From the NCBI GenBank assembly GCA_013112535.1, contig JABFGI010000001.1:306414-370413 (forward strand): 64,000 nucleotides of DNA, given 5' to 3'. Source of the DNA: Pseudomonadota bacterium. GTDB taxonomy: Bacteria; Pseudomonadota; Gammaproteobacteria; Eutrophobiales; Eutrophobiaceae. A program made the translations under genes and the position numbers. Below are positions 1,452 through 64,000 of the stretch, piece after piece; position 1 is the first letter of the stretch; every line of letters begins with the position of its first letter. The notes under the pieces are model-generated. The model did not search any database. It saw only the letters and a program-made list of their open reading frames with translations, and was not told where the DNA came from.

Positions 1452-2038
1452 CGTATCAGTTTTGAAAGTGTTTTAAATTCGGGGTGAGAAGCATCCTTAA
1501 GCCATTCAAATAATACAGATTCAGTATTTATTAAAGAAGCACCTGCTTTGTTTAAACGCATTAATGCCATGTCGTAGTCTGCTAATTTACGAGAAGCAAT
1601 TGTATCTGTTATAACAAATACTTCGTATCCTTTTTTAATAAATTCTATAGCACTTTGTAATACACATATATGAGCTTCTATACCTGTCAGTATAATTTGT
1701 TTTTTATTAATCTGATTGAGATACTCGGGCAGTTGTTCTGCTCCAAGACAGGAAAAACAGGTTTTATCAAAATGCTTTGCTGAATTTTCAAGTTGATTAG
1801 AAATAAATTCTTCTATTGGTCCTAAACCTTTTGGGTATTGTGCTGTAGTGATAACCGGAACGTTTAACCGGTTTGCTGCTGTTAATAATATATCCATGTT
1901 TTTCCGCAAACGTGAAATTACTTTATCAGGCATAGCTGAACTCAATTTCATCTGCACATCAATAATTATCAGACAACAGTCATTAGCATCACATAAGTTA
2001 TAAGAATATTTTTGTGTTGTCATAATTACATCAACCAT
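1448..2038 (-). CDS. Isochorismatase-family cysteine hydrolase (YcaC-like)
   Basis: Family motifs LIIIDVQ, HICVLQSA and KGYEVFVITD. Overlaps or abuts the tolC stop, suggesting co-transcription. Confidence 0.75.
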   Translation of the reverse strand: MVDVIMTTQKYSYNLCDANDCCLIIIDVQMKLSSAMPDKVISRLRKNMDILLTAANRLNVPVITTAQYPKGLGPIEEFISNQLENSAKHFDKTCFSCLGAEQLPEYLNQINKKQIILTGIEAHICVLQSAIEFIKKGYEVFVITDTIASRKLADYDMALMRLNKAGASLINTESVLFEWLKDASHPEFKTLSKLIR

Positions 2039-3348: not shown

Positions 3349-3398
3349 AAAAAGACGTTCTGTTTTTAATTATTATGTTACGAAAATATCAGGTAATG

Positions 3399-3716
3399 TC
3401 AGTACTGGGCCATATCTGCATCTACAGTTTTGGCCCAGACATCAACACCACCTTCAAGATTCGCAATATTACCGTAACCGTTACCTTCCAGATAACTGGC
3501 TACCTGAAAACTACGCATACCATGATGACAAATTACTACAGTTTCATCATATTTCTCAAGTTCATCGAGTATACGCTGAATATTAGACATACTTATATTT
3601 ATAGAGCCTTCTATATGACAAGTTTCATATTCCCAGGTTTCACGTACATCTAATAAAACAGGTTTTTCTCCTGCATCAAGTTTAGATTTAAGCTCCTCAG
3701 CAGAGAGTGACTTCAT
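3399..3716 (-). CDS. Single-domain rhodanese (GlpE-like sulfurtransferase)
   Basis: 105 aa with the active-site loop CHHGMRS of rhodanese. Confidence 0.75.
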   Translation of the reverse strand: MKSLSAEELKSKLDAGEKPVLLDVRETWEYETCHIEGSINISMSNIQRILDELEKYDETVVICHHGMRSFQVASYLEGNGYGNIANLEGGVDVWAKTVDADMAQY

Positions 3717-3720
3717 TTAT

Positions 3721-4374
3721 TTAGAACTCAAATACTTCTTTTTGTTCCGAACCAATTAAAGCAGGTAGTTCTGTATCGAAAATACTTTCTATTGTGTAAT
3801 CAGAACTATTTTGTTTTGATACGACACATGCTTCCATTGCCGGTGAATCTCCAATAATGGCAAATAGTCGGCCGTTATCATTTAATAAGTTTAAAAATCG
3901 CTCATCCATTTTTGGTAAAGATGCAGTTAAGACCAACACATCGTATTTATCTTTCTGCTCTAGTAAGCTATAGACATCTGCACTTTCAAGCTCAATATTA
4001 GTGAGTCCTGTTTTTATAATCTTGTCATTTGCAGAAGTAATAAAGTCTGGATAGATGTCGATACTCACAACCTGCTTCGCAGACTTTGCCATAAGTGTCG
4101 TTAAGTATCCGCAACCTGTACCAATCTCCAGTACTGTTTCATTGGATTTCAATTTCAACGATTGTAAAAGTCGAGCTTCAACTTTCGGTGTCATGGTAGC
4201 TTGGTCATGGCCAATAGGAATATTGATGTCCGCAAAGGCGAGTTCTCGATAATTGTCAGGAATAAAGTCCTCACGATGAATCTCGTTCAAAAGTCCCAGA
4301 ACGTCCAAATCAAGAACTTCCCAGGGTCGGATTTGTTGTTCAATCATATTTGATCGAGCTTGTTCTATATCCAT
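3721..4374 (-). CDS. Protein-L-isoaspartate O-methyltransferase (PIMT) family methyltransferase, paralog of pcm
   Basis: SAM-binding motif VLEIGTGCGYLT and overall PIMT-like layout. Distinct from the canonical pcm at 33526. Confidence 0.7.
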   Translation of the reverse strand: MDIEQARSNMIEQQIRPWEVLDLDVLGLLNEIHREDFIPDNYRELAFADINIPIGHDQATMTPKVEARLLQSLKLKSNETVLEIGTGCGYLTTLMAKSAKQVVSIDIYPDFITSANDKIIKTGLTNIELESADVYSLLEQKDKYDVLVLTASLPKMDERFLNLLNDNGRLFAIIGDSPAMEACVVSKQNSSDYTIESIFDTELPALIGSEQKEVFEF

Positions 4375-7598: not shown

Positions 7599-7751
7599 GA
7601 TTATGGATGACATCAATAGAGAAAATGAAAGGACTCAGGAACCTTCTAAAAGGTCTTTGTTAAAATATATTTCTTTAAATTTAATATTAACAATTCCGGC
7701 TGTATTTTTTTTATAACATTACTTTTTTATTATTTACTTGGTTCTGTAGAT

Positions 7752-8063
7752 GTGCATAGATCTAATTCTGATTACTCAAAACGCCCGGCTATTAATATTG
7801 CTATTCAAGAAATTGAAACTAACAATATATTTAAAAAGTTATTGGGAGATAATGTAAAAGCAGATTATGATAAAAATAGTAATATAAAATTTCTTGGTTC
7901 AGATGAACGAGTGTCCTTTAAAATTAGAGCGACAGGAAACATCAAGCAAAAAATATTATATGTTCATGCGATTAATAACAATCAATATGGGTGGTCAATA
8001 GAGACAGTAAAGACTAGAGATGAAAATCAAATGATTACTTTATATTCTTCCAGAAATCAATAG
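7752..8063 (+). CDS. Hypothetical protein, no recognisable family
   Basis: 103-aa ORF in an AT-rich stretch next to the thiC-associated islet. Confidence 0.35.
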   Translation: MHRSNSDYSKRPAINIAIQEIETNNIFKKLLGDNVKADYDKNSNIKFLGSDERVSFKIRATGNIKQKILYVHAINNNQYGWSIETVKTRDENQMITLYSSRNQ

Positions 8064-8065
8064 GG

Positions 8066-9514
8066 TCAGTTTCGGTTGAAAATAGTATGAGTACGTTGAC
8101 AAATTAATATTGCAAGAACAGCTAAAACAAATCCCGGTACTAATTCATAAAGATCAAACAACCAATATTCAGAAGTAATATTCTTCCATACAATTACGGT
8201 AATGCCACCAGTTAACATACCAACGAGTGCCGCATTACGTGACATGTTTTTCCAATAAAGTGATAAAAGAATAACCGGGCCGAAGGTGGCGCCGAAACCT
8301 GCCCAGGCATAGGCCACCAGATCCAATACATTGTTGTCTGGTTGTAAAGCGAGTGCAGTTGCAAAGAGTGTTAGTACAACAACGGCTACTCTACCGAATA
8401 GCATTAACTGTTTGTCGGTTACTTTTATATTAATAATTTTATAAATGTCTTCCGTTAAGGCCGATGACGCGACCAGTAATTGTGAATCAGCCGTACTCAT
8501 AATGGCAGCGAGAATTGCGGCTAAACAAATACCGGCGGGCAGGGGGTGTAACAATAATTGTAACAACTCGATAAATACCTTTTCACTATCGCTGGCCTGT
8601 AATTGATTTCCTAATAAAGCGATACCGGCAAAACCAATTAATAATGCGCTGATTAATCCAATTGCTGTCCAGTAAATAGCAATCGTACGTGCTTGCGGGA
8701 TCATTTTTTCAGATTTTATTGCCATAAAACGAACCAGTATGTGCGGTTGTCCGAAGTAGCCGAGTCCCCATGCTAGTAGAGAAATAATACCAATAAATCC
8801 TAATGGGCCATTCGTTATGCTGGTGAAGGGATTGACTAAGTCAGTGTTAATAATTGATATCCAGTTAAATAAAGCTTCAAACCCATGAAGGCTGTAAATG
8901 GAAATGAAAGCCACATAGCTCAATGCCAATGCCATTAATAATCCCTGTATCAGGTCGGTCCACGACACAGCGAGAAAACCACCAAGGCAAGTGTAGATAA
9001 GAATGGTTAGTGCGCCAATGATGACGGCCCATTGATAGGAAAGGCCAAAGACAGATTCGAATAACTTGCCGCCAGCGACCAGTCCTGAACTGGTATAAAA
9101 AAAATAAAATATAAGAATAAAAATTGCAGAAACAAGTCGTAATAGATGTGATGAATCATTAAAACGGTATTCAAGGTATTCCGGAACTGTTAATGCGTTG
9201 TTTAATGTTTGCGTCTGAACTCGTAAACGTGGCGCAACAAAATACCAGTTCATACAGGTGCCAATATACAAACCAATTGCGATCCATATCGCTTCTAATC
9301 CAGCAAGGTAGGCATAACCGGGAAGTCCTAATAATAACCATCCACTCATGTCAGATGCCCCCGCACTAATTGCCGTCGTCCATTTCCCCAGTTTCCTGCC
9401 ACCAAGAATATAGTCCGATTGACACTGTGTGCGTCGTAAGCCAATCCAGCCAATAGTAAAAATCAAGACGAGATAAATGCCAAAGGTAATAAAAATAATG
9501 CTTTGATCGGTCAT
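8066..9514 (-). CDS. SSS-family sodium:solute symporter (PutP-like)
   Basis: N-terminus closely parallels PutP (DYILGGR...ALSAGASDMSGWLLLGLPG); about 13 TM segments. Confidence 0.8.
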   Translation of the reverse strand: MTDQSIIFITFGIYLVLIFTIGWIGLRRTQCQSDYILGGRKLGKWTTAISAGASDMSGWLLLGLPGYAYLAGLEAIWIAIGLYIGTCMNWYFVAPRLRVQTQTLNNALTVPEYLEYRFNDSSHLLRLVSAIFILIFYFFYTSSGLVAGGKLFESVFGLSYQWAVIIGALTILIYTCLGGFLAVSWTDLIQGLLMALALSYVAFISIYSLHGFEALFNWISIINTDLVNPFTSITNGPLGFIGIISLLAWGLGYFGQPHILVRFMAIKSEKMIPQARTIAIYWTAIGLISALLIGFAGIALLGNQLQASDSEKVFIELLQLLLHPLPAGICLAAILAAIMSTADSQLLVASSALTEDIYKIINIKVTDKQLMLFGRVAVVVLTLFATALALQPDNNVLDLVAYAWAGFGATFGPVILLSLYWKNMSRNAALVGMLTGGITVIVWKNITSEYWLFDLYELVPGFVLAVLAILICQRTHTIFNRN

Positions 9515-9545: not shown

Positions 9546-10364
9546 CTAATCATGAATCACAAATTCCGAGTTTTTTATTTTTTCATTCAATCTAATTAAT
9601 ATCGATTTTCCAGTTTTGTTACCCATAACAGACTGTATCGGATCTTCGTCAGGGAAACGGACAATCCACTGACGTAATAAGCGTGATAACTGAAGTTTTT
9701 CAGATTGTGTGAAATGCCACTTCTCGATGAAATAGTGATAATGCTCTGGATTAGAATTAATTGAGCTGATTTCACTGGATAAAGGTTTAAGGCATTCAAT
9801 CAGGTTTTCTATTATTTGCATCTGGGCCGCAATAATTTTTTTTACTTTATCAGCATTGACTGTTGAAGTCGTTTGTTCAGCATTATCTGAAACAACTTTC
9901 AAGCAATGAATTAACTCAGTCGTACCTAAACGTATTGCCATTTGGTAAAAAGCTGATGCTTCCATATCAAACAAGGCATCCTGATATTCTGTTGAAGGTT
10001 TATCCAGTGTGATTAAACTTGTGCTTTCACATGGCGATTTAAATATAACTTGTGGATACCAGCTAGTATTGTCATGTTCATCTGTAATTTTGTTGACTAA
10101 ACGAATATCTCCTACGGCAATGTTAGCGTGTCCGGCAATACCAATGTTTAACCAGATATCAGAGTTGCATGTATTAATGCATGCATGATGATAACTGACT
10201 GCAGATGCAGCATTAATTTTTCCGACGCTTGTTATAGTTAGACTTATTTCTTTATCTTTCGATTGATAGATGCGAAACAAATCAAACTGTTTTAACTCAG
10301 TTAATTTAAAGTGTTGAATCAGTGGTTGGGCTTCGCAGTGCAGGGCGCAGAAAATATGGATCAT
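9546..10364 (-). CDS. PNP_UDP_1 (MTA/SAH-nucleosidase-like) phosphorylase/nucleosidase family protein with a ~90-aa C-terminal extension
   Basis: GIAG and DMEA motifs characteristic of Pfs/MTAN-type nucleosidases. 16 nt downstream of the GT2 gene. Confidence 0.6.
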   Translation of the reverse strand: MIHIFCALHCEAQPLIQHFKLTELKQFDLFRIYQSKDKEISLTITSVGKINAASAVSYHHACINTCNSDIWLNIGIAGHANIAVGDIRLVNKITDEHDNTSWYPQVIFKSPCESTSLITLDKPSTEYQDALFDMEASAFYQMAIRLGTTELIHCLKVVSDNAEQTTSTVNADKVKKIIAAQMQIIENLIECLKPLSSEISSINSNPEHYHYFIEKWHFTQSEKLQLSRLLRQWIVRFPDEDPIQSVMGNKTGKSILIRLNEKIKNSEFVIHD

Positions 10365-12064: not shown

Positions 12065-12451
12065 ATGTCTGAAGAATCCAAAAAGAAAGGATTAAATGTT
12101 CGTACTGAAGTAATGGGCGAAGAGTTTGTTCAACGAGCAATAAATAATACGACTGAATTAACGGGGCCATTGCAAGACTGGATTAATGAACATGCATGGG
12201 GTTCTACCTGGCAACGCGAAGGTATTTCAAAACAAACGCGTTCTTTAGTCACCATTGCGATGTTAGCTGCATTAAAAACGCCTACTGAATTAAAAGGTCA
12301 TGTGCGTGGTGCGTTAAATAATGGCTGTACCATTCAGGAAATACAGGAAGTGTTATTGCATTCGATTGTTTACTGTGGTGCCCCGGCAGCTCAAGAGGCT
12401 TTTCGAGCAGCACAGGAAGTGATTGATGTGTGGCAAGCTAATAATGAATAA
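12065..12451 (+). CDS. Carboxymuconolactone decarboxylase (CMD) family protein
   Basis: 128 aa, CMD/AhpD-like helical core (HSIVYCGAPAA). Confidence 0.7.
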   Translation: MSEESKKKGLNVRTEVMGEEFVQRAINNTTELTGPLQDWINEHAWGSTWQREGISKQTRSLVTIAMLAALKTPTELKGHVRGALNNGCTIQEIQEVLLHSIVYCGAPAAQEAFRAAQEVIDVWQANNE

Positions 12452-12501
12452 GATTATAGTGTTTGCTTTTGATCAGAAACATCTTGAACTATAAGTTCAA
12501 C

Positions 12502-15171
12502 TTAAAGCTCAAGGGAAAAATATATTATGTTAGATTCAGGCTCTAGTTGTGTCTCAAAATGAAACTTTCTGACCAAACGAAGCATTGCATGATTTTCTGG
12601 TAAAAGCTGACCTGTTAATCGCTTTGTTCCTCGCTTACGACAATAGCTTATAAGCTTTTCCATTAACTTCTTGCCAAGACCATTTTTATGTATATCACTA
12701 CGTATAATGATGGCTATTTCTGCTTCATTGTTATCTGAATCAGAAATTGCTCTAATGACACCTAAAGTCTCCAGCTTATGATCAGTCGTCTTTGCAATAA
12801 AGGCCATTTCGCGGTCGTAATCAATTTGCGTGAATCGCGCCAGGAATTGATGTGAGAAATTATTTGCAGCCTTGAAGAATCGAAAATAAATATCTTGTGG
12901 ATCAGTTTTACTCAGAAATTCGTGATGCGCTGATTCATCTTCAGGTCTTATTGGACGTAATACGACTTCTTGTCCGTTATTCAGAATTATTCTTTCTTCC
13001 AGTTCTTTAGGGTAAGGGCGTATAACCAGTCTTTCTGAACCCGTTAAATTTGTAGCTTTAATTTTAATTCTGGCATCCAGCGCAACGACGCCTTTACTGT
13101 CTGCAAATAATGGATTGATATCAAGTTCAATTATTTCAGGATTATCAATAATCAATTGAGATATTTTTACAAGCGTAAGTTTGACTTCTTCCAGATTTGC
13201 AGCAGGAATACCTCTATAACCAGAAAGAAGTTTGCTGATTCGGGTACGCGAAATAAGGTCTTCTGCCAACTTAATGTTTATTGGTGGAAGTGCCACTGCC
13301 TTGTCATTGATTACTTCAACGGATACGCCTCCATGTCCGAACAATATTGCCGGGCCAAAGATTGGATCAGTTGCAACGCCAATAATCAATTCGTAGGAAT
13401 CGCCACGGGCGACCATTTTTTGTACAGTAAAACCGTCAATATTTGCAGCAGGTAGTAATTTTTTAATACGTGCCAGCATTCCTTCAGCAGCCAATTGCAA
13501 GGTTTGCCCGGAATCTATTCCAACTAAAACGCCTCCAACATCAGATTTATGTGTGATGTCGGAAGATAATATTTTCAGTACTACAGGGTATCCTAAGTCG
13601 TCAGCAGCGTTTAACGCGTCATCGACATTATATGCAATTTTTGTTTCAACAATGGGTATTCCATATGCCGCTAATATATTTTTAGCCTCAGGTTCAGTGA
13701 GAACATTACGTTTGTCTTGCAAGACGCTTTTAATTATTTTCTGCGTGCTAGCTTTTGCCTGGCCTTGATCAAAACCTTCAGTGATGGATGGTGGTGTTTC
13801 CATTAAGCTTTCTTTATTGCATCCATACTCCACAATTTGCATGAAAGCCTGTATTGCTGAATAAGGAGTATCGAAGGAAGGAATCCCTTCTTGTTCGAAA
13901 ATTTCCCTGGCCTCCGCGACACCATCCTCTCCCATCCAACAAGTCAGTATCGGCTTCTTTGTTTGATTTATTTCATTTGCAACAGCGATAGCCACTTCTT
14001 TGTTATTAATAACAGCAACAGGTACTAGCATTACCAGAATCGCATCATGATTTGGATCTTTGATCAAAACTTTCAATGCATTGAGATAACGGTCGGCGTC
14101 TCCATCACCAATAATGTCGACAGGGTTTGCTTTCGACCAGGTAGGAGGTAGAAACGTATTTAGCTCTTCAATAGTTTCAGGTGATAGTTCAGCGATTCTT
14201 CCGCCACTAGTAATCAAGTGATCCGTTGCCAATACACCCGGGCCACCACCATTGGTTAAAATTGTCAAACGATTACCTTTTATCGGACGTGCGCGGGCGA
14301 GGGTTTCTACAGCATCAAATATGTTATTTATTGTATAAACTCTAAGCATCCCTGCACGTCGAATAGCTGCATCAAAGACATCATCACTTCCACTTAATGC
14401 ACCAGTATGAGAAGTAGCAGCCTTTGCTCCTTCAGCCACTCGGCCAGATTTAATTACAATGACCGGTAAGTTACGGGATGTAGCTCGTGCAGCAGACATA
14501 AACTTACGTGCCAGTTTGACTGATTCCATATATAGCACTACACCATGAGTTGACTGGTCACTTCCTAAATAATCAAGCAGGTCTCCAAAATCGATGTCTG
14601 CATTATCACCCAGAGAAATAAAGTAAGAGAAACCAATACCTTTTGATTTTGCCCAATCAAGTATTGTTGTGCATAGCGCGCCCGATTGAGAGACAAAAGC
14701 AAGGTTTCCTTTTAATGAATTAGTATGAGCAAAACTGGCATTAAGACCGATTGAAGGTATTAATAAGCCAACACAATTAGGTCCGAGTATGCGTAAGTCA
14801 TATGGTTTTGCAGCATCTAACATACGCTGTTGAAGTGATTCTCCATCTATTGACTCATGAAATCCCGCACTTAACACAACTGCAGCACGCGTGCCGCGTT
14901 CACCTAATTCTTTAATCAAATCAGGTATTGTTATTGCCGGTGTACAAATTACTGCAAGATCCGGTACAACAGGCAATGACTTTATGTCCTGATAGGCCAG
15001 TACGCCATTAACAAACTTATATTTTGGATTGACTGGCAGAATAGGACCTGAAAATCCACCGGAGATCAGGTTTTTCATCACAACATTGCCTAATGAGCCG
15101 GGTTTTTCTGACGCACCTATCAGCGCTACCGACTCAGGCTTAAATAATTTCTTTAAATTTAGTACACTCAT
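12502..15171 (-). CDS. Pat/PatZ-type protein lysine acetyltransferase (NDP-forming acyl-CoA synthetase-like domains plus C-terminal GNAT)
   Basis: 889 aa. N-terminal CoA-binding and succinyl-CoA-synthetase-like domains, ATP-grasp, C-terminal GNAT (HKNGLGKKLM). Confidence 0.8.
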   Translation of the reverse strand: MSVLNLKKLFKPESVALIGASEKPGSLGNVVMKNLISGGFSGPILPVNPKYKFVNGVLAYQDIKSLPVVPDLAVICTPAITIPDLIKELGERGTRAAVVLSAGFHESIDGESLQQRMLDAAKPYDLRILGPNCVGLLIPSIGLNASFAHTNSLKGNLAFVSQSGALCTTILDWAKSKGIGFSYFISLGDNADIDFGDLLDYLGSDQSTHGVVLYMESVKLARKFMSAARATSRNLPVIVIKSGRVAEGAKAATSHTGALSGSDDVFDAAIRRAGMLRVYTINNIFDAVETLARARPIKGNRLTILTNGGGPGVLATDHLITSGGRIAELSPETIEELNTFLPPTWSKANPVDIIGDGDADRYLNALKVLIKDPNHDAILVMLVPVAVINNKEVAIAVANEINQTKKPILTCWMGEDGVAEAREIFEQEGIPSFDTPYSAIQAFMQIVEYGCNKESLMETPPSITEGFDQGQAKASTQKIIKSVLQDKRNVLTEPEAKNILAAYGIPIVETKIAYNVDDALNAADDLGYPVVLKILSSDITHKSDVGGVLVGIDSGQTLQLAAEGMLARIKKLLPAANIDGFTVQKMVARGDSYELIIGVATDPIFGPAILFGHGGVSVEVINDKAVALPPINIKLAEDLISRTRISKLLSGYRGIPAANLEEVKLTLVKISQLIIDNPEIIELDINPLFADSKGVVALDARIKIKATNLTGSERLVIRPYPKELEERIILNNGQEVVLRPIRPEDESAHHEFLSKTDPQDIYFRFFKAANNFSHQFLARFTQIDYDREMAFIAKTTDHKLETLGVIRAISDSDNNEAEIAIIIRSDIHKNGLGKKLMEKLISYCRKRGTKRLTGQLLPENHAMLRLVRKFHFETQLEPESNIIYFSLEL

Positions 15172-40886: not shown

Positions 40887-41168
40887 TTAATTTGCTTGTT
40901 TAGGCACTTTACCTTTTATCATATAAGCAAAAGCAATCGTTTCAGCCACTGCCACATAAAGTTCTCTGGGTATTTCCTGATCTAATTTCAGTTTGGCAAG
41001 CATATCAACTAATTCAGGCTCTTCTCGTATAGGAATATTATGTTCTTTTGCGATCGCAATAATTTCATCTGCAATTTCGCCCATACCTTTTGCAGATAAT
41101 ACTGGTGCCGTGACGCCGTCATAACTCAGTGCAACAGCTTTGTTTGGTGTTTCAATGAAGTCAGTCAT
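40887..41168 (-). CDS. Stand-alone FlhB/EscU C-terminal domain protein (YlqH-like)
   Basis: KAVALSYDG...APVLSAKGMGEIADEIIAIAKEHNIPI...LYVAVAETIAFAY is colinear with the FlhB C-terminal cleaved domain. Confidence 0.8.
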   Translation of the reverse strand: MTDFIETPNKAVALSYDGVTAPVLSAKGMGEIADEIIAIAKEHNIPIREEPELVDMLAKLKLDQEIPRELYVAVAETIAFAYMIKGKVPKQAN

Positions 41169-42472
41169 ATCGTAATATTAATAAGGTTGTTGCTTGTGTG
41201 AGGAATGTCTTGTTCTGAAAGTGTTTCTTGCACACAAACAATTTTCCCGGTCGATAAACCACATTTTTCTATTTGATTGTTCAATAGTGATAAATTTGAA
41301 TTTATTAAGTCATTTAATATTTCGTTTTCTGACCATAATGTCGCGTTTACTTCTTTATCAATAACAGATAGCTTCGCAGAAATCGTTCCTATGTTCTCGA
41401 ACGTAATTTTCAGATCAGTTGCCCAGCGTAATTGTTGTTCATCATCTGATTTTGAATCTCTGTCAGCATGAATATTAAGTTTTAACAGATCAATATCCTG
41501 TTTATCTTTCACCGGCATTTCAATAGACCATAGAGGAGCCTGATTATCGTGCGTGACGATAGCTTTTGATTGATTGACTTCTATACGTGCAATGGATGAT
41601 TCTATGTGTTTACTAAGCATTTCAGTTTCTGCTTTTAAAGCTTGTTCAACCAGTTTATTCGAGTTTTGTACTTTTGCTGCATTACTTCTGGTACTTTCCG
41701 GAGATGTTAATTGAACTTGTTTAATAAAACCGTTCTCCTGATTTTTTATATTTTGTTTATACTTGTTGATGACATCTGACAGTTGTAACAAGTTAGTCTT
41801 CAGGTCTTTTGCGATTTCCAGATTTTGAGTCAATTGATGTGCTTGTGCGGTACTTTGCCCGGATGTTGACGATGACGCTTTTTGTGCTGGTAAGTTAGTT
41901 AGTTTTAAAAGCGAATCAGGTTTAGTCTTCACTTCTGTTAGTAATTTTGCTTCCAGAAAAATACCTGAATTCTTGATTGCAGTTTTTAAACCAGATTCAT
42001 TATTCAGGTTGTTTTTTACCGGCAATTGTTCAATTAATTTTTTAAACTGTTGCTCTATCGGTGCGGGAATAGTTTTAATGACATCTTTAACATTTTTTGA
42101 AACCTGAGCTAAAACAGAGGTTAGTTTTTCCATTCCTGCCTGTTTAGGCATGCTTTCCCGGAGTAGCTGTTGTTTAGCTTCATGAATTACCTTGGTTTGA
42201 TTTTGTTGTAATACCCGTAAAGTTACAGGATTGTCCTGTTTTTCTACGACCAGCTTTAGTTGGTCTCCGATATTAAGTGGCCTGCTTTGATCGGTTTTAG
42301 CTTCAATTTGTTGATTGCCAATTTGCAAAATAAATGAATCTGGCGAGTGTTTTTTTATTACAGTCGCATTTACTATTTGGCCGATAAACATTTGGGATAG
42401 GTTTAACTGTACCAATTTCACTGATGGCAGTGTTGGAGATGAAGTAGAAATAACTAACGGTTGAATATCCAT
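41165..42472 (-). CDS. FliK-like protein with C-terminal Flg_hook domain
   Basis: C-terminal ~80 aa (ISAKLSVIDKEVNATLWSEN...CGLSTGKIVCV) fits the hook-length-control C-terminal domain pattern; Gln/Asn-rich middle region. Overlaps the FlhB-like gene by 4 nt. Confidence 0.6.
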   Translation of the reverse strand: MDIQPLVISTSSPTLPSVKLVQLNLSQMFIGQIVNATVIKKHSPDSFILQIGNQQIEAKTDQSRPLNIGDQLKLVVEKQDNPVTLRVLQQNQTKVIHEAKQQLLRESMPKQAGMEKLTSVLAQVSKNVKDVIKTIPAPIEQQFKKLIEQLPVKNNLNNESGLKTAIKNSGIFLEAKLLTEVKTKPDSLLKLTNLPAQKASSSTSGQSTAQAHQLTQNLEIAKDLKTNLLQLSDVINKYKQNIKNQENGFIKQVQLTSPESTRSNAAKVQNSNKLVEQALKAETEMLSKHIESSIARIEVNQSKAIVTHDNQAPLWSIEMPVKDKQDIDLLKLNIHADRDSKSDDEQQLRWATDLKITFENIGTISAKLSVIDKEVNATLWSENEILNDLINSNLSLLNNQIEKCGLSTGKIVCVQETLSEQDIPHTSNNLINITI

Positions 42473-42543
42473 AAGGGTTTAACGGCATATTGGCATGAAA
42501 CTTGACCTGTTTTTCGTGATATTAATGAATTTGGAGGCTTGAT

Positions 42544-43422
42544 TTGGCTGAGCGAAGACTATGGTTTGTAAAGAGAAATGGCGAAATTAAGGGGCCATTT
42601 TTGTCGGCACAAATCACGAGAAATATTTTGCTTGGTCGACTTCGTTATGATGATGAAATAAGTCCTGATGAGCATAATTGGCAAAAAATCGATAAGCATC
42701 GGGAGCTTTACCCTGATGTTTTACAGGAAACTCCCGTCGATGAAGAAAAACTGGAAATTGCTAAAATGCAGGTTGACGAACGTGTTTCAGAAAAAAGACG
42801 CCAAAAAAACAAAATGGCGCAGGAAAGACGCAAAACAAGGGAACGACGCGGAACCGAATCTGAAATTATGTTGGTTCACAGGGAAAATAGAAATTCATTA
42901 AAAGAATTAGATAAAAAACATCTCAAGCGACCAAAGTTACCGGTGACTTCTATTGCTTTATTGATCATTGTGATGATGGTATTTGGTTTTGTTTTGAAAC
43001 CACAGGAAGAAAACGGATTAATTGATTGTTCCTTGCCAGCGGGTAAAGGGGTGAACTGGCATCATTGTCATTTTATAAATTTAAACATTGAAAATCAGAA
43101 TCTTGAATCAGCGATTTTAACTGAAGCTACTTTGAATGGAGCAAATTTAATGGGCGTTAATCTTTCCGGTGCAGATATGGCGTATGCGGTCATTAAATCA
43201 AGTGATTTGAGTTATGCCAATCTCGAGCGTGTACGTTTAATTGGTGCAAATTTAACGCAAACGGATATTCGTTATGCGAATTTGAAAAATGCTGATCTAT
43301 CTTATGCTGATTTAACTGGCGCACAACTTGCTGGAGCTGATTTGAGTAATGCTCAATTTAATAATACGATTTGGACGGATGGTAGACAATGTAAAAAAGG
43401 ATCTGTTGGTTCCTGTCGATAA
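42544..43422 (+). CDS. Membrane-anchored pentapeptide-repeat protein with N-terminal DUF4339/GYF-like domain
   Basis: N-terminal WFVKRNGEIKGPF motif, single TM, C-terminal A(N/D)LxxANLxGADL pentapeptide repeats. Confidence 0.7.
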   Translation: MAERRLWFVKRNGEIKGPFLSAQITRNILLGRLRYDDEISPDEHNWQKIDKHRELYPDVLQETPVDEEKLEIAKMQVDERVSEKRRQKNKMAQERRKTRERRGTESEIMLVHRENRNSLKELDKKHLKRPKLPVTSIALLIIVMMVFGFVLKPQEENGLIDCSLPAGKGVNWHHCHFINLNIENQNLESAILTEATLNGANLMGVNLSGADMAYAVIKSSDLSYANLERVRLIGANLTQTDIRYANLKNADLSYADLTGAQLAGADLSNAQFNNTIWTDGRQCKKGSVGSCR

Positions 43423-44787
43423 TTAATTATAATATTCAGCAGTATAACGCCAGGCTTTTTCTGGCGAATCGGATGCAGCTATTCCAGCTTTTCTTTTTAA
43501 TTCATTTAAAAACTGTCCAGACTCCTTTAAGGATTCCCACACAACTGGTAAAAATGTAGCTCGGGCATTGTTTTTGGAAATAATTAAACCATCGACACCG
43601 GGACGTAATTTAGCCAACAAGTCTTGTTCGTCAGCAAAAGGTAGTGGTGATGCCGGCGTTAATATCGATAAACTGATTTCAACGTGTTTATATTCTTCTT
43701 CAGTTAATGGTTTAAAACGCGGATCAGAAAATGCAGCAGCATGAGCATAGTGCGCAACGGCATCAATTAAAGGCGCATGTGCCTCCGTTGTGCCTATGCA
43801 ACCACGTAATTGACCATTCAGTTTTAACGTAATAAATACAGCATAATTTTTCTTGAGATGTTCCGAAACGTCTTTTGTTTCAGGCTCAAATGCTTTTCCT
43901 GTTTTAAATCCCTGTTCAATACTTTTATGAATGATATTAAAGATCAATGCTTCATCTTCTTTATTAAGAATTCTGTTTTCAAATAAAGCATAAGCACCAT
44001 AACCGACAACACGGTCTTTTGTACCTGCTGTGTCACCTGAATTACGTAAATCCACCGTCTTGATAGACATGTTTTTTTCTTGAGCCAGTTTTAATAAACC
44101 GCGCATGGGCATACAACCACAAGCCTGTTTGGAACCAATATTTTTATAATCGAATTTTTCAATAAGATGTGTTGTGTCGTTATCTGTTTTGCATGCTGTT
44201 TCATAATCCAGGTAGTGACTAAGATCAGAACTTATAACAATTAAGGTTTCATCTCCGCCCCACAGTTCTTCAAGAATCGTTGCAACCTGCTCAGGTGTGG
44301 CATCACCAACTAATACTGGTAGAAGAACAAAATTGTTTAATACTTTCTGTAAAAAAGGAATGTGTACTTCTAAACTATGTTCCTGTTCGTGAGCTTCATC
44401 TAAAAATTGAACGAAAGGATGCGTGCTAATATTTTTAAGGCTATCTGTATCAACCGGTACATTACCGAGAGGTGAAGCAAAATGGGTATTACCGGGTAAT
44501 GCCAATCCTCTTACATAAACTCTATGTGTCGGGCCTAATAACACGACACGAGTAATTTTCGTTTTTAACTTTACAAGATTTGAGTAAACACTGGCCGCTA
44601 TCTGGCCTGAATAAATATAGCCGGCATGAGGTGCAATAATCGCTTTTGGTGCTGCAATTTCGACAGTTGCTATAGAAAGGTATTCCTCTAGCATGCTATT
44701 CAACTGGCTGGTGTTTTTGGGATAAAAGCTACCCGCAACTGCTGTTGGTCTAATAGAAAGAGGTTGATTCATTGACGTTACACCCAT
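43423..44787 (-). CDS. Fusion of AmmeMemoRadiSam system protein B (Memo-like) and protein A (AMMECR1 domain)
   Basis: N-terminal about 270 aa Memo/MEMO1-like (GSFYP...APHAGY). C-terminal about 180 aa AMMECR1 (RGCIGT motif). Confidence 0.8.
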   Translation of the reverse strand: MGVTSMNQPLSIRPTAVAGSFYPKNTSQLNSMLEEYLSIATVEIAAPKAIIAPHAGYIYSGQIAASVYSNLVKLKTKITRVVLLGPTHRVYVRGLALPGNTHFASPLGNVPVDTDSLKNISTHPFVQFLDEAHEQEHSLEVHIPFLQKVLNNFVLLPVLVGDATPEQVATILEELWGGDETLIVISSDLSHYLDYETACKTDNDTTHLIEKFDYKNIGSKQACGCMPMRGLLKLAQEKNMSIKTVDLRNSGDTAGTKDRVVGYGAYALFENRILNKEDEALIFNIIHKSIEQGFKTGKAFEPETKDVSEHLKKNYAVFITLKLNGQLRGCIGTTEAHAPLIDAVAHYAHAAAFSDPRFKPLTEEEYKHVEISLSILTPASPLPFADEQDLLAKLRPGVDGLIISKNNARATFLPVVWESLKESGQFLNELKRKAGIAASDSPEKAWRYTAEYYN

Positions 44788-44850
44788 ATATACTAGATTA
44801 GTAAACCATATTAAATTATAGGACTAAACTTATCTTATAGTCATTCATTC

Positions 44851-45954
44851 TTGGATATCATGAATAGCAACACGGTTAAAACAAAATATTGGCATAAACT
44901 CGATGATGGTCGTGTTCAGTGTGACCTTTGTCCCCGGGCATGCAAATTGAAAGACGGGCAAACAGGGCTTTGTTTTGTTCGCGCTTGTCTGGATGAACAA
45001 ATTGTTTTAACGACTTATGGACGTTCCAGTGGATTTTGTATTGATCCGATTGAGAAAAAACCACTCAATCATTTTTACCCTGGAACATCGGTTCTTTCTT
45101 TTGGTACCGCAGGATGTAATCTGGCCTGTAAATTTTGTCAAAATTGGGATATCAGTAAATCACGAGAAATGGACACACTTGCTGATGTTGCCAGTCCTGA
45201 AACATTGGCACAAGCGGCAAAAAAAACAGGCTGTCGCAGTATTGCATTTACCTATAATGATCCGGTGATTTTTCATGAATATGCTATTGATGTTGCTCAG
45301 GCTTGTCATGAGAAAGAAATAAAAACTGTTGCTGTTTCAGCAGGTTATGTGTCACCAGAGCCTAGAGCAGAGTTTTATAAGTACATTGATGCAGTTAATA
45401 TTGACTTGAAAGCCTTTAGCGAGGATTTTTATCACAAAATCACTGGAAGTCATCTCGCTCCCGTTCTGGAAACGTTGTCTTATCTTAAACATGAAACCAA
45501 TGTTTGGTTTGAAATAACTAACTTGTTAATTCCTGGTGAAAATGATTCGGACAAAGAGATAAATGAAATGACAAAATGGATTATTTCAGAGTTGGGTCCC
45601 GATGTACCACTGCACTTTTCCGCCTTTCATCCCGATTGGAAAATGCGAAATATTCCAAGAACAAGTTTGAAAAGTTTACAAAAAGCGAGATCTATTGCCA
45701 TCATGAACGGCTTACATTATGTCTACACTGGGAATGTCCACGATCCGGAAGGGGATACGACCTATTGTTATGAATGTGGAGAGGAACTTATCGTTCGTGA
45801 TTGGTATGAGATTAAAAACTGGAATTTAGGAGCAAATGGAAATTGTCCTAAATGTAATACAGTGTGTGCCGGTGAGTTTGAGCCAAACCACGGAAACTGG
45901 GGCTCAAAAAGGGTTCCAGTGAGGCTAGACGGTTTTTTGGCTAATGCTAATTAA
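44851..45954 (+). CDS. AmmeMemoRadiSam system radical SAM enzyme
   Basis: CNLACKFCQNW radical-SAM cluster motif and N-terminal Cys-rich segment; divergent from the Memo-AMMECR1 gene. Confidence 0.8.
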   Translation: MDIMNSNTVKTKYWHKLDDGRVQCDLCPRACKLKDGQTGLCFVRACLDEQIVLTTYGRSSGFCIDPIEKKPLNHFYPGTSVLSFGTAGCNLACKFCQNWDISKSREMDTLADVASPETLAQAAKKTGCRSIAFTYNDPVIFHEYAIDVAQACHEKEIKTVAVSAGYVSPEPRAEFYKYIDAVNIDLKAFSEDFYHKITGSHLAPVLETLSYLKHETNVWFEITNLLIPGENDSDKEINEMTKWIISELGPDVPLHFSAFHPDWKMRNIPRTSLKSLQKARSIAIMNGLHYVYTGNVHDPEGDTTYCYECGEELIVRDWYEIKNWNLGANGNCPKCNTVCAGEFEPNHGNWGSKRVPVRLDGFLANAN

Positions 45955-54906: not shown

Positions 54907-55464
54907 ATGGATAACGATGTTTCAGATGAGAATCTTATGATGAGCTATGCTTCGGGTGATGCTGCAGCGTTTGAAATATTATATGCGCGTCATAAAGGAG
55001 CCATCTATCGCTATATGCTTAATCTATGTCGTAATGAAGCGATTGCGGAAGAATTATTTCAGGAAGTCTGGATGAAATTGATTAATGCCCGTGAAAATTA
55101 TCAAGTTAAAGCAAAGTTTACAACCTATCTCTACAAACTGGCACATAATCAATATATTGATCATTATCGAAAACAAAATGTCAGGATAGTGGAAGACCAG
55201 TCCGTAGAAATAGATGACGTTATACAAGAACAATCATCTAAAAATAATCCTGAAAAACAGGCACAAACAAACCAGACTATAAATAGATTGACTGAATTAT
55301 TGGCATCCTTACCCAATGAACAACGCGAAATTTTTTTATTAAGAGAAGAAACAGGAATGAGTATTCCTGACCTTGCAGAGACATTAGGTATTAACCATGA
55401 AGCGGCAAAGAGTCGTCTTCGCTATGCAATCAGTAAATTGAGAACAGGTTTAAATAACGAATAA
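54907..55464 (+). CDS. ECF-type RNA polymerase sigma factor (sigma-70 regions 2 and 4)
   Basis: Region 2 (YRYMLNLCRNEAIAEELFQEVWMKL) and region 4 HTH (MSIPDLAETLGINHEAAKSRL). Confidence 0.8.
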   Translation: MDNDVSDENLMMSYASGDAAAFEILYARHKGAIYRYMLNLCRNEAIAEELFQEVWMKLINARENYQVKAKFTTYLYKLAHNQYIDHYRKQNVRIVEDQSVEIDDVIQEQSSKNNPEKQAQTNQTINRLTELLASLPNEQREIFLLREETGMSIPDLAETLGINHEAAKSRLRYAISKLRTGLNNE

Positions 55465-55467
55465 GTT

Positions 55468-56448
55468 ATGGCAAACAAGGATCAAAACGATAAAGAATTA
55501 AATGACTATCTGAAGGGTGATTCAGATTTGTCGAAAGCTTATCGTGCATCGAATAAAGTCGAACCATCAGTTCATCTGGATGAAAAAATATTGTCAGCTG
55601 CTAAAGATACAATTAATAGTGATAAACAGAAAACAAAATTTCATAAAGCGCCCTGGGTAAAACCGGTTTCTATTGCTGCGATAGTTACATTGAGTGTTAG
55701 TCTGGTCGTAACAATGCAACAGGAAACTGGACAATCAATAATCAGTGAGCCAGAAGTTGAAATGTATGATTCTGCTGCGGTTATTGAAGAAATAAGCTTG
55801 CCTGAATCAAAGCAAAGCAGTGATGATGAAACTGTTATAAACGAAATTGAATTAAAACAAAAAAAGGATGCGCGTGTTGATGCTGCAGTACCAGCAGCAT
55901 TAGGTGCTGCAACAGATTTATATCGTACTGAAGAAAAAGCAGAATTAGAAAGAGCAAGAATGAAACAAGCACCTGCTAAAAGAATGTTAATGAAAGAAAA
56001 AGAACAAATGCAAGCAGATGCATTAGAAGAAAGAGTTTTTGCTGATGAAGTAATGCCGTCCGCTCCGACGGGAATAGAGTTTGATAGTGTAATGGATATG
56101 GAACAAGAAAAGCAGCAGATTTCAACTATTAGCGAAGTTCTTTCCATTGATGATTTATTAAAAGAATCATCTAAGTATGATGGGGAAGAAGTAGTTGTAA
56201 AAGGCGTGTTACATTTTGAGTTCGAAGGAAATGAATTAAGAAGCGGAAGTTATAAACTAGCAGTGAGCTTAGCCGAATCAGTTCGAAAAAATACAGAGGC
56301 ATATAGCAATTATAAAAATAAATACAACGGTACTTTGGTGAAGGTTAAAGGAATTTTTAATCTAGAATTTAAGGGACATAGAGGAATGTGGCCTGCTGGC
56401 ATTACCGATGTTACTTCAATAATTCCTTACAACAATAAAGTAAATTAA
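55468..56448 (+). CDS. Putative anti-sigma factor (single-pass membrane protein)
   Basis: Starts 4 nt after the ECF sigma gene. Short cytoplasmic N-terminus, one TM, charged periplasmic region. Confidence 0.5.
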   Translation: MANKDQNDKELNDYLKGDSDLSKAYRASNKVEPSVHLDEKILSAAKDTINSDKQKTKFHKAPWVKPVSIAAIVTLSVSLVVTMQQETGQSIISEPEVEMYDSAAVIEEISLPESKQSSDDETVINEIELKQKKDARVDAAVPAALGAATDLYRTEEKAELERARMKQAPAKRMLMKEKEQMQADALEERVFADEVMPSAPTGIEFDSVMDMEQEKQQISTISEVLSIDDLLKESSKYDGEEVVVKGVLHFEFEGNELRSGSYKLAVSLAESVRKNTEAYSNYKNKYNGTLVKVKGIFNLEFKGHRGMWPAGITDVTSIIPYNNKVN

Positions 56449-63488: not shown

Positions 63489-64000
63489 TTATTTATGGTC
63501 TTGAGGTGGTAATACCGAGTACACTTCTTCAAGTGTTGTGAGTCCATCTGCTACTTTTTGTGCGCCGCCTATTTTTAATGGGCGCATACCTGTTTTTAAA
63601 GCTATGGCACGCAGCGTATCTATATCTGTATGTGAAGTTATGTTTTCTCGTAATGTCTGATTCATTGTTAGTATTTCATAAATGCCTGCGCGACCCATAT
63701 AACCCGTATGTCGACATTCATCACAACCGACCGGTTTACAAATTTTTGGTGGCATTTTCAATTTGTTAGGACTGGCAAATTCTTCCCAGGCCTGTTTGTT
63801 TGTCGGGACAGGTTCTTTGCAATGAAAACATAAAGTTCTTAGTAATCGTTGTGCGACAATACCTTGTATCGTTGCGTTTAATAAAAAGGGTTGCATGCCT
63901 ATATCAATTAAACGAGTAACCGCCGAAGGCGCATCATTGGTGTGTAAACTGGATAAGACTAAATGTCCTGTAAGTGCTGCTTGTATAGCGATGTCGGCTG
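63489..64000 (-). CDS. GspE/PilB-family secretion/pilus-assembly ATPase, C-terminal part (5' end beyond the window)
   Basis: Walker B/His box region ([10 protein letters not shown]...TRLIDIGM) and C-terminal tetracysteine (CFHCK...CDEC) typical of GspE/PilB. Frame is open to the window end. Confidence 0.7.

What the first reader, a model, noticed from the sequence alone, without database searches (positions are those of the whole stretch)
40887..42472. Orphan FlhB C-terminal domain gene translationally coupled to a FliK-like gene, away from any flagellar or T3SS locus in this window
A 93-aa protein matches the autocleaved C-terminal substrate-specificity switch domain of FlhB/EscU but lacks the transmembrane export-gate part. 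It overlaps by 4 nt a 435-aa protein whose C-terminus looks like the FliK hook-length-control domain. In flagellar and injectisome systems the FliK C-terminus contacts exactly this FlhB domain to flip secretion specificity. Here the two interacting modules sit as an isolated pair between mrcB-lpoP and unrelated genes, so they may regulate something other than a flagellum in cis.
Basis: partly seen in the sequence, partly recalled or inferred. Interest (0 to 1): 0.5.

Follow-up and report, generated by a model that had tools for sequence, protein, structure and literature searches.

The report
Known flagellar fliK2-flhX operon, unlinked copy
The two overlapping genes are real, but they are an ordinary copy of the fliK2-flhX operon already described in Pseudomonas, still driven by a flagellar (sigma-28) promoter although they sit among housekeeping genes.

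Summary
ORFs 40887-41168(-) (93 aa) and 41165-42472(-) (435 aa) overlap by 4 nt (ATGA). The short protein matches only the post-cleavage FlhB C-terminal subdomain. The long one has a FliK-type switch domain at its C-terminus. No flagellar, T3SS or chemotaxis gene was found in about 80 kb.

The interpretation that the pair regulates something other than a flagellum is not supported, for four reasons.
- The pair is orthologous to the Pseudomonas putida fliK2-flhX operon (PP_4328/PP_4329), which is FliA-dependent.
- Just upstream lies a sigma-28-type promoter, TCAAGTTT-N11-GCCGTTAA. It is unique in the window and conserved upstream of orthologues down to 28% protein identity.
- In unrelated metagenomes the consensus form of this element (GCCGATAA -10 box) precedes flgK, flgM, flagellin and fliD.
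- In other Gammaproteobacteria the pair abuts the che/mot cluster, and one MAG shows an intermediate gene order.

Both genes are under purifying selection (dN/dS about 0.2 and 0.05). The family is large, with more than 1,100 clusters.

I could not check directly whether this genome has flagellar genes. The biochemical role of fliK2-flhX is unknown in any organism.

The parts
42479..42505 (-). Sigma-28 (FliA)-type promoter, TCAAGTTT-N11-GCCGTTAA. It ends 6 nt before the fliK2 ATG, so the mRNA is predicted to be leaderless or nearly so.
   Evidence: It is the only match in the window (0.02 expected by chance). The strict form TCAAGTTT-N11-G[AC]CG occurs 20 times in 1.8 Mb of fetched DNA, and 19 of those are directly upstream of a FliK2-like start codon, including L025 at 28% identity. 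In unrelated metagenome contigs the consensus form with a GCCGATAA -10 box precedes FlgK, FlgM, flagellin and FliD genes. P. putida PfliK2 is FliA-dependent experimentally. The leaderless reading is inference from spacing.
41165..42472 (-). fliK2 (435 aa), a FliK paralogue. The start at 42472 is supported by N-terminal conservation (M-DIQ...) in distant homologues. The NCBI call of 408 aa is probably 27 codons too short.
   Evidence: dN/dS is 0.20-0.26.
42212..42376 (-). FliK2 residues 33-87: predicted five-stranded beta domain (OB-like). It follows a low-confidence N-terminal 22 residues.
   Evidence: AF2 model. Foldseek matches to OB folds such as IF1/eIF1A and the PAN N-domain are weak, with E = 0.1-0.5. 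No Pfam family covers this region.
41942..42025 (-). FliK2 residues 150-177: the family signature LP...GLK.AI.NSG.FLEAKL, the most conserved block of the family. Canonical FliK has no described equivalent.
   Evidence: P151, G170, E174 and K176 are invariant in alignments A2, A4 and A6. The block is shared with P. putida FliK2 (P0075). It was the pattern used by the genome scan.
41222..41533 (-). FliK2 residues 314-417: T3S4 / Flg_hook substrate-specificity-switch domain.
   Evidence: Pfam PF02120 at 36.0 bits, above the 29.8 cut-off. PDB profile hit to 2RRL. Foldseek gives 2RRL prob 1.00 and PscP 5CUK prob 1.00 with rmsd 2.4 A over 68 columns; the whole-chain E-values are weak at 0.06-0.22. 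pLDDT is about 80-88.
41165..41168 (-). ATGA stop/start overlap that couples fliK2 and flhX translationally.
   Evidence: The same 4-nt overlap occurs in 23 of the fetched loci, including P. putida, Methylocaldum and Pseudomonadales MAGs.
40887..41168 (-). flhX (93 aa), a free-standing FlhB_CC homologue with no membrane domain, no FlhB_CN linker and no NPTH autocleavage site (ETPNK in its place).
   Evidence: The clade FlhX HMM scores FlhX-type proteins at 55-154 bits (92-154 except Pseudohongiella at 55-57) and full-length FlhB at 69-71 bits. dN/dS is 0.04-0.09.

Best explanation
This is the fliK2-flhX operon, a late-class accessory operon of the flagellar regulon that is widespread in Gammaproteobacteria. 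Here it sits in an uncultured low-GC lineage where it has become unlinked from the other motility genes. Sigma-28 (FliA) RNA polymerase starts transcription at or within a few bases of the fliK2 ATG, and flhX is translated by coupling through the ATGA overlap. FliK2 carries a FliK-type T3S4 switch domain at its C-terminus. FlhX is a ready-made copy of the FlhB_CC subdomain, the piece that FliK's switch domain contacts at the flagellar export gate. The most likely mechanism is that the FliK2 switch domain binds an FlhB_CC-type domain, either its co-translated partner FlhX or FlhB itself. FlhX may also dock on the gate in place of or beside FlhB_CC, as H. pylori FlhX can. Because the operon is sigma-28-dependent, it would act after hook-basal-body completion, tuning or stabilising the late export state and not measuring the hook. 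Shown here: the gene structure, domains, orthology, promoter motif and its conservation, purifying selection, and the association with che/mot genes in relatives. Shown by others: FliA dependence in P. putida, FliK_C-FlhB_C binding in Salmonella, and FlhX complementing an FlhB_CC deletion in H. pylori. Inferred: FliA dependence in this organism, the FliK2-FlhX interaction, the timing, and the presence of a flagellum in this genome.
For: Orthology to P. putida fliK2-flhX:
- L006 has the same gene order and the same 4-nt overlap. Its neighbours (ccm genes, the pair, a ToxA_N-domain gene, flrD, cheW, parP, parC, motDC, cheB) fit the paper's PP_4328 to PP_4334 numbering.
- P0075 shares the N-terminal and central signature blocks as well as Flg_hook.

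Sigma-28 promoter:
- The motif is unique in the window and conserved in all clade loci while the flanks and the spacer diverge.
- 19 of 20 strict matches in 1.8 Mb lie upstream of FliK2 genes.
- The consensus form of the element in unrelated metagenomes precedes FlgK (9), FlgM (6), flagellin (3), FliD (2), MCP (2) and FlgO (1).
- PfliK2 is stimulated by ectopic FliA; all seven FliA-consensus promoters tested rose 4- to 33-fold.

Flagellar association elsewhere:
- In 13 non-clade loci the commonest neighbouring families are CheW, Response_reg, CheB, ParA-type ATPases and MotB, with DUF2802/FlrD and MotA also recurring.
- L021 carries rSAM, Memo and pentapeptide genes on one side and flrD-cheW-parP-parC-motDC-cheB on the other.
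- A full-length FlhB lies about 6 kb from the pair in Pseudohongiella.

Flagellar rather than injectisome lineage: the FlhB model scores 62.8 bits against 41.6 for SctU, and every PDB hit is a flagellar FlhB.

Functional maintenance: dN/dS is 0.20-0.26 for fliK2 and 0.04-0.09 for flhX, within the range of adjacent housekeeping genes.

Canonical interaction: the FliK_C core binds FlhB_C to switch export (PMC6972891). An FlhB-family C-terminal domain can function in trans (HrcU, PMC3040844).
Against: - No flagellar gene of this genome was seen. About 80 kb were surveyed, and the rest of the 674-kb contig and MAG could not be read.
- FliA dependence here rests on a sequence motif only.
- FlhX scores below the strict TIGR00789 cut-off (84.8 against 117.35).
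- The AF2 model has moderate quality (pLDDT 67) and the Foldseek E-values are weak.
- No experiment in any organism shows a FliK2-FlhX interaction or a phenotype. The P. putida authors call the operon uncharacterised.
- Some Methylococcales carry a FliK2-like gene without an adjacent flhX, so the pairing is not obligatory.
Confidence: 0.77

Rival explanations
1. The 435-aa protein is this lineage's only FliK, the true hook-length ruler and switch. On this reading the pair is a flhX-fliK pair of the kind noted in Campylobacterota, and not an accessory paralogue.
For: A flhX-fliK pair lying outside the main flagellar cluster is reported for Nitratiruptor. No second fliK could be looked for in this genome. 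The C-terminal T3S4 domain is present.
Against: The protein is orthologous over its full length to P. putida FliK2, which coexists with a canonical fliK. A sigma-28 (late) promoter does not fit a protein needed during hook assembly. The N-terminal part is predicted to be a folded beta domain plus long helices, not the FliK_N ruler domain described for Salmonella FliK.
Confidence: 0.09
2. One reading: the pair acts outside flagellar assembly. It might work on envelope or peptidoglycan functions near mrcB/lpoP, or as a sigma-28-controlled module retained in a lineage that has lost its flagellum.
For: The che/mot cluster that flanks the pair in relatives is replaced here by lpoP-mrcB, and this layout is stable across a deep clade with 28-100% FliK2 identity. 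No flagellar gene was found in about 80 kb. From my own knowledge, some non-flagellated Legionella species keep FliA.
Against: The sigma-28 promoter is conserved. The orthologues belong to flagellar clusters. The mrcB and TPR-lipoprotein genes are convergent with flhX, so there is no operon link. P. syringae also has the pair unlinked from its cluster and still has a flagellar cluster.
Confidence: 0.08
3. The pair is a non-functional relic left at the edge of a deleted flagellar cluster.
For: The pair sits at the cluster boundary in relatives (L006, L021, L041), and the cluster side is missing here.
Against: Both ORFs are intact in every clade locus. dN/dS is 0.04-0.26, comparable to housekeeping neighbours. 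The promoter and the 4-nt coupling are conserved.
Confidence: 0.02

Closest known systems
Pseudomonas putida KT2440 fliK2-flhX operon (PP_4328/PP_4329), Leal-Morales et al., bioRxiv 10.1101/2021.08.29.457346
   Same: The gene order, the 4-nt overlap and the Flg_hook C-terminus match. So do the shared N-terminal and central (NSG.FLEAKL) blocks, the short FlhB_CC protein without NPTH, and the FliA-consensus promoter upstream.
   Different: In P. putida the operon lies at the edge of the 59-gene flagellar cluster, and the promoter is about 108 nt upstream of the ATG. Here the operon lies between mrcB/lpoP-like and pentapeptide/Memo genes, and the promoter abuts the ATG. The proteins are only about 23% (FliK2) and about 49% (FlhX) identical. 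The paper already notes that the pair is unlinked in P. syringae and P. savastanoi.
Helicobacter pylori FlhX (HP1575), Wand et al. 2006 and Smith et al. 2009 (as cited)
   Same: Both are free-standing homologues of the FlhB_CC subdomain.
   Different: The H. pylori protein has experimental evidence for partly replacing FlhB_CC. No such data exist for this clade or for Pseudomonas. I have no evidence that HP1575 is paired with a fliK2-type gene; that was not tested.
Canonical FliK / FlhB substrate-specificity switch (Salmonella; PMC6972891)
   Same: The T3S4 domain fold and the FlhB_CC domain are the same two modules that interact to flip export specificity.
   Different: FlhB is a membrane protein that autocleaves at NPTH, whereas FlhX is soluble and made pre-cleaved. 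FliK has an N-terminal ruler domain (FliK_N) joined to FliK_C by a flexible linker, and my understanding is that fliK is transcribed with hook-stage rather than late genes. FliK2 has a predicted beta domain plus helices and a late (sigma-28) promoter.
NCBIfam TIGR00789 flhB_rel (FlhB-like flagellar biosynthesis protein)
   Same: It is the best-scoring NCBIfam model, aligned over positions 3-81 of 84.
   Different: The score of 84.8 bits is below the model's strict trusted cut-off of 117.35.

Membership tests
FlhX (free-standing FlhB_CC homologues) | Short protein homologous only to the C-terminal, post-cleavage subdomain of FlhB | tested here: met
   The protein is 93 aa. The Pfam match covers Bac_export_2 positions 262-334 of 335. 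It aligns with the 3B1S_B and 3B0Z_B FlhB_CC chains from chain residue 5.
FlhX (free-standing FlhB_CC homologues) | No transmembrane domain and no NPTH autocleavage site | tested here: met
   Alignment A5 shows ETPNK where a true FlhB (L046) has TNPTHY, with nothing N-terminal to it.
FlhX (free-standing FlhB_CC homologues) | Closer to FlhX-type proteins than to full-length FlhB | tested here: met
   The clade FlhX HMM scores P. putida, Methylocaldum and Thiomicrorhabdus FlhX at 105-129 bits, most other short FlhX-type proteins at 92-154 bits and Pseudohongiella FlhX at 55-57 bits. Full-length FlhB scores 69-71 bits. This is a scoring comparison, not a phylogeny.
FlhX (free-standing FlhB_CC homologues) | Reaches the NCBIfam TIGR00789 trusted cut-off | tested here: not met
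   The score is 84.8 bits against a cut-off of 117.35. This is a strict equivalog-type threshold. It lowers confidence in exact equivalence but not in the domain assignment.
FlhX (free-standing FlhB_CC homologues) | Occurs in genomes that also encode full-length FlhB | not testable with these tools
Co-occurrence was seen in Pseudohongiella (L046/L047), probably also in L027 (an incomplete long FlhB-like ORF), and is reported for P. putida.
fliK2-flhX operon (Pseudomonas type) | FliK2: Flg_hook/T3S4 C-terminal domain plus the family-specific N-terminal and central blocks | tested here: met
   The profile finds 1,101 cluster representatives at E <= 1e-30, mostly over the full length.
fliK2-flhX operon (Pseudomonas type) | flhX immediately downstream of fliK2 and co-transcribed with it | tested here: met
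   The 4-nt overlap occurs here and in 23 fetched loci. Co-transcription was shown by RNA-seq only in P. putida.
fliK2-flhX operon (Pseudomonas type) | FliA (sigma-28)-dependent promoter | tested here: inconclusive
   At the sequence level this is met and strongly conserved. There is no expression data for this organism.
fliK2-flhX operon (Pseudomonas type) | Located in or next to the flagellar/chemotaxis cluster | tested here: not met
   No such genes were found within about 80 kb. The P. putida paper lists the same exception for P. syringae and P. savastanoi, so this feature is typical rather than defining.
Canonical FliK (hook-length control protein) | C-terminal T3S4 switch domain | tested here: met
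Canonical FliK (hook-length control protein) | N-terminal ruler region (FliK_N) that measures the hook and is exported during hook assembly | tested here: not met
   AF2 predicts a folded beta domain (residues 33-87) and long helices (92-303), with only residues 2-22 at low confidence. The promoter is of the late class. The model has only moderate confidence.
Canonical FliK (hook-length control protein) | Controls hook length | not testable with these tools
   This needs genetics and electron microscopy.

The most novel reading that the evidence does not exclude
The clade, which spans 28-100% FliK2 identity and always has lpoP-mrcB where relatives have the che/mot cluster, may have lost its flagellum. 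It would have kept FliA and this sigma-28-driven FliK2-FlhX pair under purifying selection. That would mean a T3S4 domain and a free FlhB_CC domain work together with no type III export gate, as a stand-alone regulatory or partner-switching module.
Probability: 0.07. Interest if true: 0.6.

Novelty: new member of a known kind. Interest (0 to 1): 0.22.

Why it matters
As found, it matters little. It is one more orthologue of a widespread operon that has already been named. The residual value is twofold.

First, fliK2-flhX has no known function in any organism, even though it occurs in more than a thousand sequence clusters. The features documented here give concrete handles for experiments in Pseudomonas: strict coupling of the two genes, a very conserved sigma-28 promoter, an invariant NSG.FLEAKL block, and a pre-cleaved FlhB_CC.

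Second, this clade shows the operon held in place for a long time away from other motility genes. If its complete genomes turned out to lack a flagellum, the pair would become an interesting case of a switch module that has been re-used for something else.

Tried and rejected
- **Finding flagellar genes in the same genome.** Exact-protein look-ups at both window edges returned only short Logan contigs with housekeeping genes. The single genome-contig scan went on the FliK2 family.
- **Sigma-28 motif in distant loci.** Hits with 2 mismatches occur at background frequency (0.25 per kb), so I discarded them. Only hits with 0-1 mismatch are cited (P. putida, P. spelaei, L044).
- **Recurring 7-nt spacing.** I suspected that this spacing between the element and the start codon in the metagenome loci marked FliK2 genes in high-GC lineages. 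None of them is FliK2, and the spacing is probably an artefact of my ORF picker.
- **Sigma-70 promoter and terminator scans around the pair.** These gave nothing above shuffled expectation.
- **Literature.** Searches for YlqH, for FliK-like/FlhB-like, and for functional work on the pair found nothing beyond the P. putida study. The Wand 2006 paper is not held.
- **Weak Pfam hits.** The phiKZ_IP and Mcp40H-20_sensor hits in FliK2 are below threshold, and I disregarded them.
Full report
**1. Observation.** They share the four bases ATGA.

The short protein matches Pfam Bac_export_2 at 65.7 bits (cut-off 24.4), but only over the last 73 of 335 profile positions. Its best NCBIfam model is TIGR00789 'flhB_rel' at 84.8 bits, below that model's strict cut-off of 117.35. 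Flagellar FlhB models outscore the injectisome SctU model, 62.8 against 41.6 bits. Among all PDB sequences its best matches are the post-cleavage FlhB_CC chains of Aquifex (3B1S_B) and Salmonella (3B0Z_B), and every hit is a flagellar FlhB. Aligned with a genuine full-length FlhB from Pseudohongiella, the protein begins six to eight residues before the first strand of FlhB_CC. It has ETPNK where FlhB has TNPTHY, so it lacks both the membrane part and the autocleavage site.

The long protein passes the Pfam Flg_hook threshold (36.0 against 29.8 bits) at residues 343-417. A profile of its family finds only the Salmonella FliK C-terminal domain 2RRL among PDB sequences (E = 0.0023). An AlphaFold2 model (mean pLDDT 67; C-terminal domain about 80-88) shows three parts: a five-stranded beta domain at residues 33-87, helices at 92-303, and an alpha/beta domain at 314-414. 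Foldseek pairs the C-terminal domain with FliK-C (2RRL) and with the PscP switch domain (5CUK, rmsd 2.4 A over 68 columns). Both have probability 1.00, although the whole-chain E-values are weak at 0.06-0.22.

**2. Surroundings.** Every other gene in the window is housekeeping. The set includes thiC, an SLT/LysM transglycosylase, rnhA, dnaQ, argD/argF, surE-pcm-nlpD-rpoS, adk, mrcB with a TPR lipoprotein, a pentapeptide-repeat protein, Memo/AMMECR1 with a radical SAM enzyme, rimP-nusA-infB-rbfA-truB, pnp, an ECF sigma factor, and rimM-trmD-rplS-xerD. About 6 kb to the left lie glmS, a sigma-54 response regulator, an Hpt protein and a hybrid kinase. Ten kb to the right lie an MshE-type ATPase, dsbC, hldE, rfaD, waaA and soxYZ. 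Neither side adds a motility gene. The statement that the pair is away from any flagellar or T3SS locus in this window is therefore correct.

**3. What the pair is.** The 435-aa protein has about 70 relatives at 44-73% identity in uncultured Gammaproteobacteria, all with Flg_hook. The 93-aa protein has more than 100 relatives, all short. In every clade locus examined the two genes are adjacent in the same neighbourhood, down to 33% and, in L025, 28% FliK2 identity.

The most distant named hit was a Pseudomonas putida 'FliK' (P0075). Its locus, L006, has the same architecture: a Flg_hook protein, a 4-nt overlap, then a 113-aa Bac_export_2 protein. The pair there lies between the ccm operon and flrD-cheW-parP-parC-motDC-cheB. 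That is the gene order described for PP_4328 to PP_4334 by Leal-Morales et al. (bioRxiv 10.1101/2021.08.29.457346). They named the pair fliK2-flhX and showed that the two genes are co-transcribed. They found a conserved FliA-consensus motif upstream, and ectopic FliA stimulated PfliK2 (all seven FliA-consensus promoters tested rose 4- to 33-fold). They also noted that the pair is unlinked from the flagellar cluster in P. syringae and P. savastanoi, and they stated that its function is uncharacterised.

P0075 aligns with the window protein through Flg_hook and also through an N-terminal block and a central LP...GLK.AI.NSG.FLEAKL block, in which P151, G170, E174 and K176 are invariant. This is orthology, not a shared domain. 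An exhaustive HMMER search with the family profile finds 5,868 cluster representatives at E <= 1e-3 and 1,101 at E <= 1e-30, mostly over the full length.

**4. Distribution and linkage.** A scan of GTDB species representatives with the central motif returned 46 loci. They come from the window's clade and from Chromatiaceae, Competibacterales, Methylocaldum and other Methylococcales, Pseudomonadales, Cellvibrionales, Pseudohongiella, Thiomicrorhabdus and Thiotrichales. A short FlhB_CC gene follows the FliK2-like gene in almost every locus where the contig continues, and 23 loci have the same 4-nt overlap. The exception is a Methylobacter-type group, which has a longer FliK2-like gene preceded by an HDOD gene and no adjacent flhX.

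In 13 non-clade loci the commonest neighbouring Pfam families are CheW (11), Response_reg (10), a ParA-type ATPase (4-5), CheB (4) and OmpA/MotB (3-4). DUF2802/FlrD (3) and MotA (2) also recur, along with ccm genes. A per-locus search places che/mot genes beside the pair in L006, L021, L023, L026, L027, L040, L041, L050 and L051/L052, and a full-length FlhB about 6 kb away in Pseudohongiella.

L021, a Chromatiaceae MAG, is an intermediate. It has rSAM, Memo/AMMECR1 and the pentapeptide gene on one side of fliK2-flhX, as in the window. On the other side it has flrD-cheW-parP-parC-motDC-cheB, as in Pseudomonas. The pair therefore seems to have sat originally at the boundary of the che/mot cluster. 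In the window's clade lpoP-mrcB now occupies that side.

**5. Promoter.** The 71-bp region upstream of fliK2 contains TCAAGTTT-N11-GCCGTTAA at 42479-42505(-). From my own knowledge this is one mismatch per half-site from the enterobacterial sigma-28 consensus TAAAGTTT-N11-GCCGATAA, and TCAAG is the -35 form reported for Pseudomonas FliA.

- It is the only such site in the 64 kb, with 0.02 expected by chance.
- In every clade locus the same layout recurs: invariant TCAAGTTT, an 11-nt spacer that differs between subclades, G[C/A]CG.T.., then 6-8 nt, then the start codon and a conserved N-terminal coding sequence (ATG GAT ATT CAA in most loci). The DNA further upstream is not conserved.
- The strict form occurs 20 times in 1.8 Mb of fetched sequence, and 19 of those are directly upstream of a FliK2-like start codon.
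- As an independent test I scanned JGI metagenome contigs for the exact consensus form, which carries a GCCGATAA -10 box, one base different from the window's GCCGTTAA. The 120 loci returned are mostly high-GC, unrelated organisms. The first downstream ORFs are enriched for FlgK (9), FlgM (6), flagellin (3), FliD (2), MCP (2) and FlgO (1).

The element is therefore a sigma-28-class promoter signature. Because the -10 box ends 6 nt before the ATG, and the N-terminus from that ATG is conserved in distant homologues that have other promoters, the transcript is predicted to be leaderless or nearly so. That is inference from spacing. No sigma-70-like promoter or terminator stands out in the region.

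**6. Are the genes functional?** Within the clade, Nei-Gojobori dN/dS for unsaturated pairs is 0.20-0.26 for fliK2 and 0.04-0.09 for flhX. The neighbours give 0.05-0.09 for mrcB, 0.11-0.17 for Memo/AMMECR1 and 0.11-0.19 for the TPR lipoprotein. Both genes are maintained by selection, so the pair is not a relic of a deleted cluster.

**7. Mechanism.** In Salmonella the core of FliK_C binds FlhB_C and switches export from rod- and hook-type to filament-type substrates. FliK_N is the ruler and carries the export signal (PMC6972891). FlhB-family proteins autocleave at NPTH, and in Xanthomonas the cleaved C-terminal domain of HrcU can act in trans (PMC3040844). H. pylori FlhX (HP1575) partly replaces a deleted FlhB_CC (Wand et al. 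2006 and Smith et al. 2009, as cited).

Taken together, the best-supported reading has three steps.
- After hook-basal-body completion, FliA transcribes fliK2-flhX.
- The two proteins are made in coupled fashion.
- The FliK2 T3S4 domain engages an FlhB_CC-type surface, either FlhX or FlhB at the gate, and so modulates the late export state.

The promoter class, the domains and the coupling are shown here. The interaction, the timing and the effect on export are inferred. What the conserved N-terminal beta domain and the NSG.FLEAKL block do is not explained.

**8. What could not be settled.** I could not read the rest of this genome, so the presence of fliA, flhB and the structural flagellar genes is inferred from the promoter and from relatives. 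The alternative is that the clade lost the flagellum but kept FliA and this pair for another purpose. It cannot be excluded, and I give it about 7%.

**9. Verdict.** The reading that the pair regulates something other than a flagellum is not supported. The locus is a new member of a known kind, the fliK2-flhX operon, in an uncultured lineage that is possibly sulfur-oxidising. It lies in an unlinked genomic position, which has already been noted for some pseudomonads. Interest is low to modest. The open question is the biochemical function of fliK2-flhX in general, and nothing particular to this window.

Noticed in passing
window 42544-43422 (+); also L021 8914-9825, L040 8943-9833, L020 from about position 941: A membrane protein with an N-terminal GYF_2-like region and C-terminal pentapeptide repeats is transcribed divergently from fliK2. 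It shares the 71-bp intergenic region with the sigma-28 promoter. The same divergent neighbour occurs in L021 and L040, where che/mot genes flank the pair, but not in the deepest clade branches (L004, L018, L025). It may be functionally linked to the operon.
   Followed up: partly
L007, L028-L030, L032, L034-L039, L048: A Methylobacter/Methylococcales subgroup has longer FliK2-like genes (about 500-700 aa by longest-ORF calls) with the same central and C-terminal blocks. It has no adjacent flhX, an HDOD-domain gene lies immediately upstream in those checked, and no che/mot neighbours were found.
   Followed up: partly
window 42392-42472 (-); L009 around 10000-10060: The NCBI gene call for this protein (P0001, 408 aa) starts 27 codons downstream of the conserved ATG. 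In L009 the equivalent start codon reads ACG in a contig with 0.56x coverage, and the gene callers chose a later ATG there (P0013, 424 aa).
   Followed up: partly
window 43423-45954: A fused Memo/AMMECR1 protein (454 aa) lies next to a divergent radical SAM enzyme (367 aa). This looks like an AmmeMemoRadiSam-type pair and is conserved next to fliK2 throughout the clade and in L021.
   Followed up: no
L001 (GCA_038142205.1) 12136-14408, 7651-9020, 1659-4053: In this 2.66-Mb MAG contig, mrcB, Memo/AMMECR1 and infB are each split into two ORFs, whereas a Logan contig carrying the same FliK2 protein (L002) has mrcB and Memo/AMMECR1 intact. These are probably long-read assembly frameshifts and not pseudogenes.
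   Followed up: no
L054 2955-7197 (about 6 kb left of the window; the kinase ends at window 773): A sigma-54-dependent response regulator, an Hpt protein and a hybrid histidine kinase lie next to glmS and a Sel1-repeat protein. It is not evident whether they relate to motility regulation.
   Followed up: no
window 63489-63896 (-), continuing in L176 6515-8305; L176 14253-15098: An MshE-type (MshEN + T2SSE) ATPase runs off the right end of the window. A fused SoxY/SoxZ gene lies about 8 kb further on, which suggests a sulfur-oxidising lifestyle for the organism.
   Followed up: no
L010 2548-2787: In one clade member, fliK2 and flhX are separated by 238 nt instead of overlapping by 4 nt.
   Followed up: no
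window 54907-56448 (+): An ECF sigma factor (185 aa) is followed 4 nt later by a 326-aa ORF with no Pfam hit, which could be an anti-sigma factor.
   Followed up: no
L024, L026, P0163, P0176 (alignment A5): The FlhX proteins of Methylococcales retain N-P at the position of the NPTH cleavage site (NPPD), although only three or four residues precede it.
   Followed up: no
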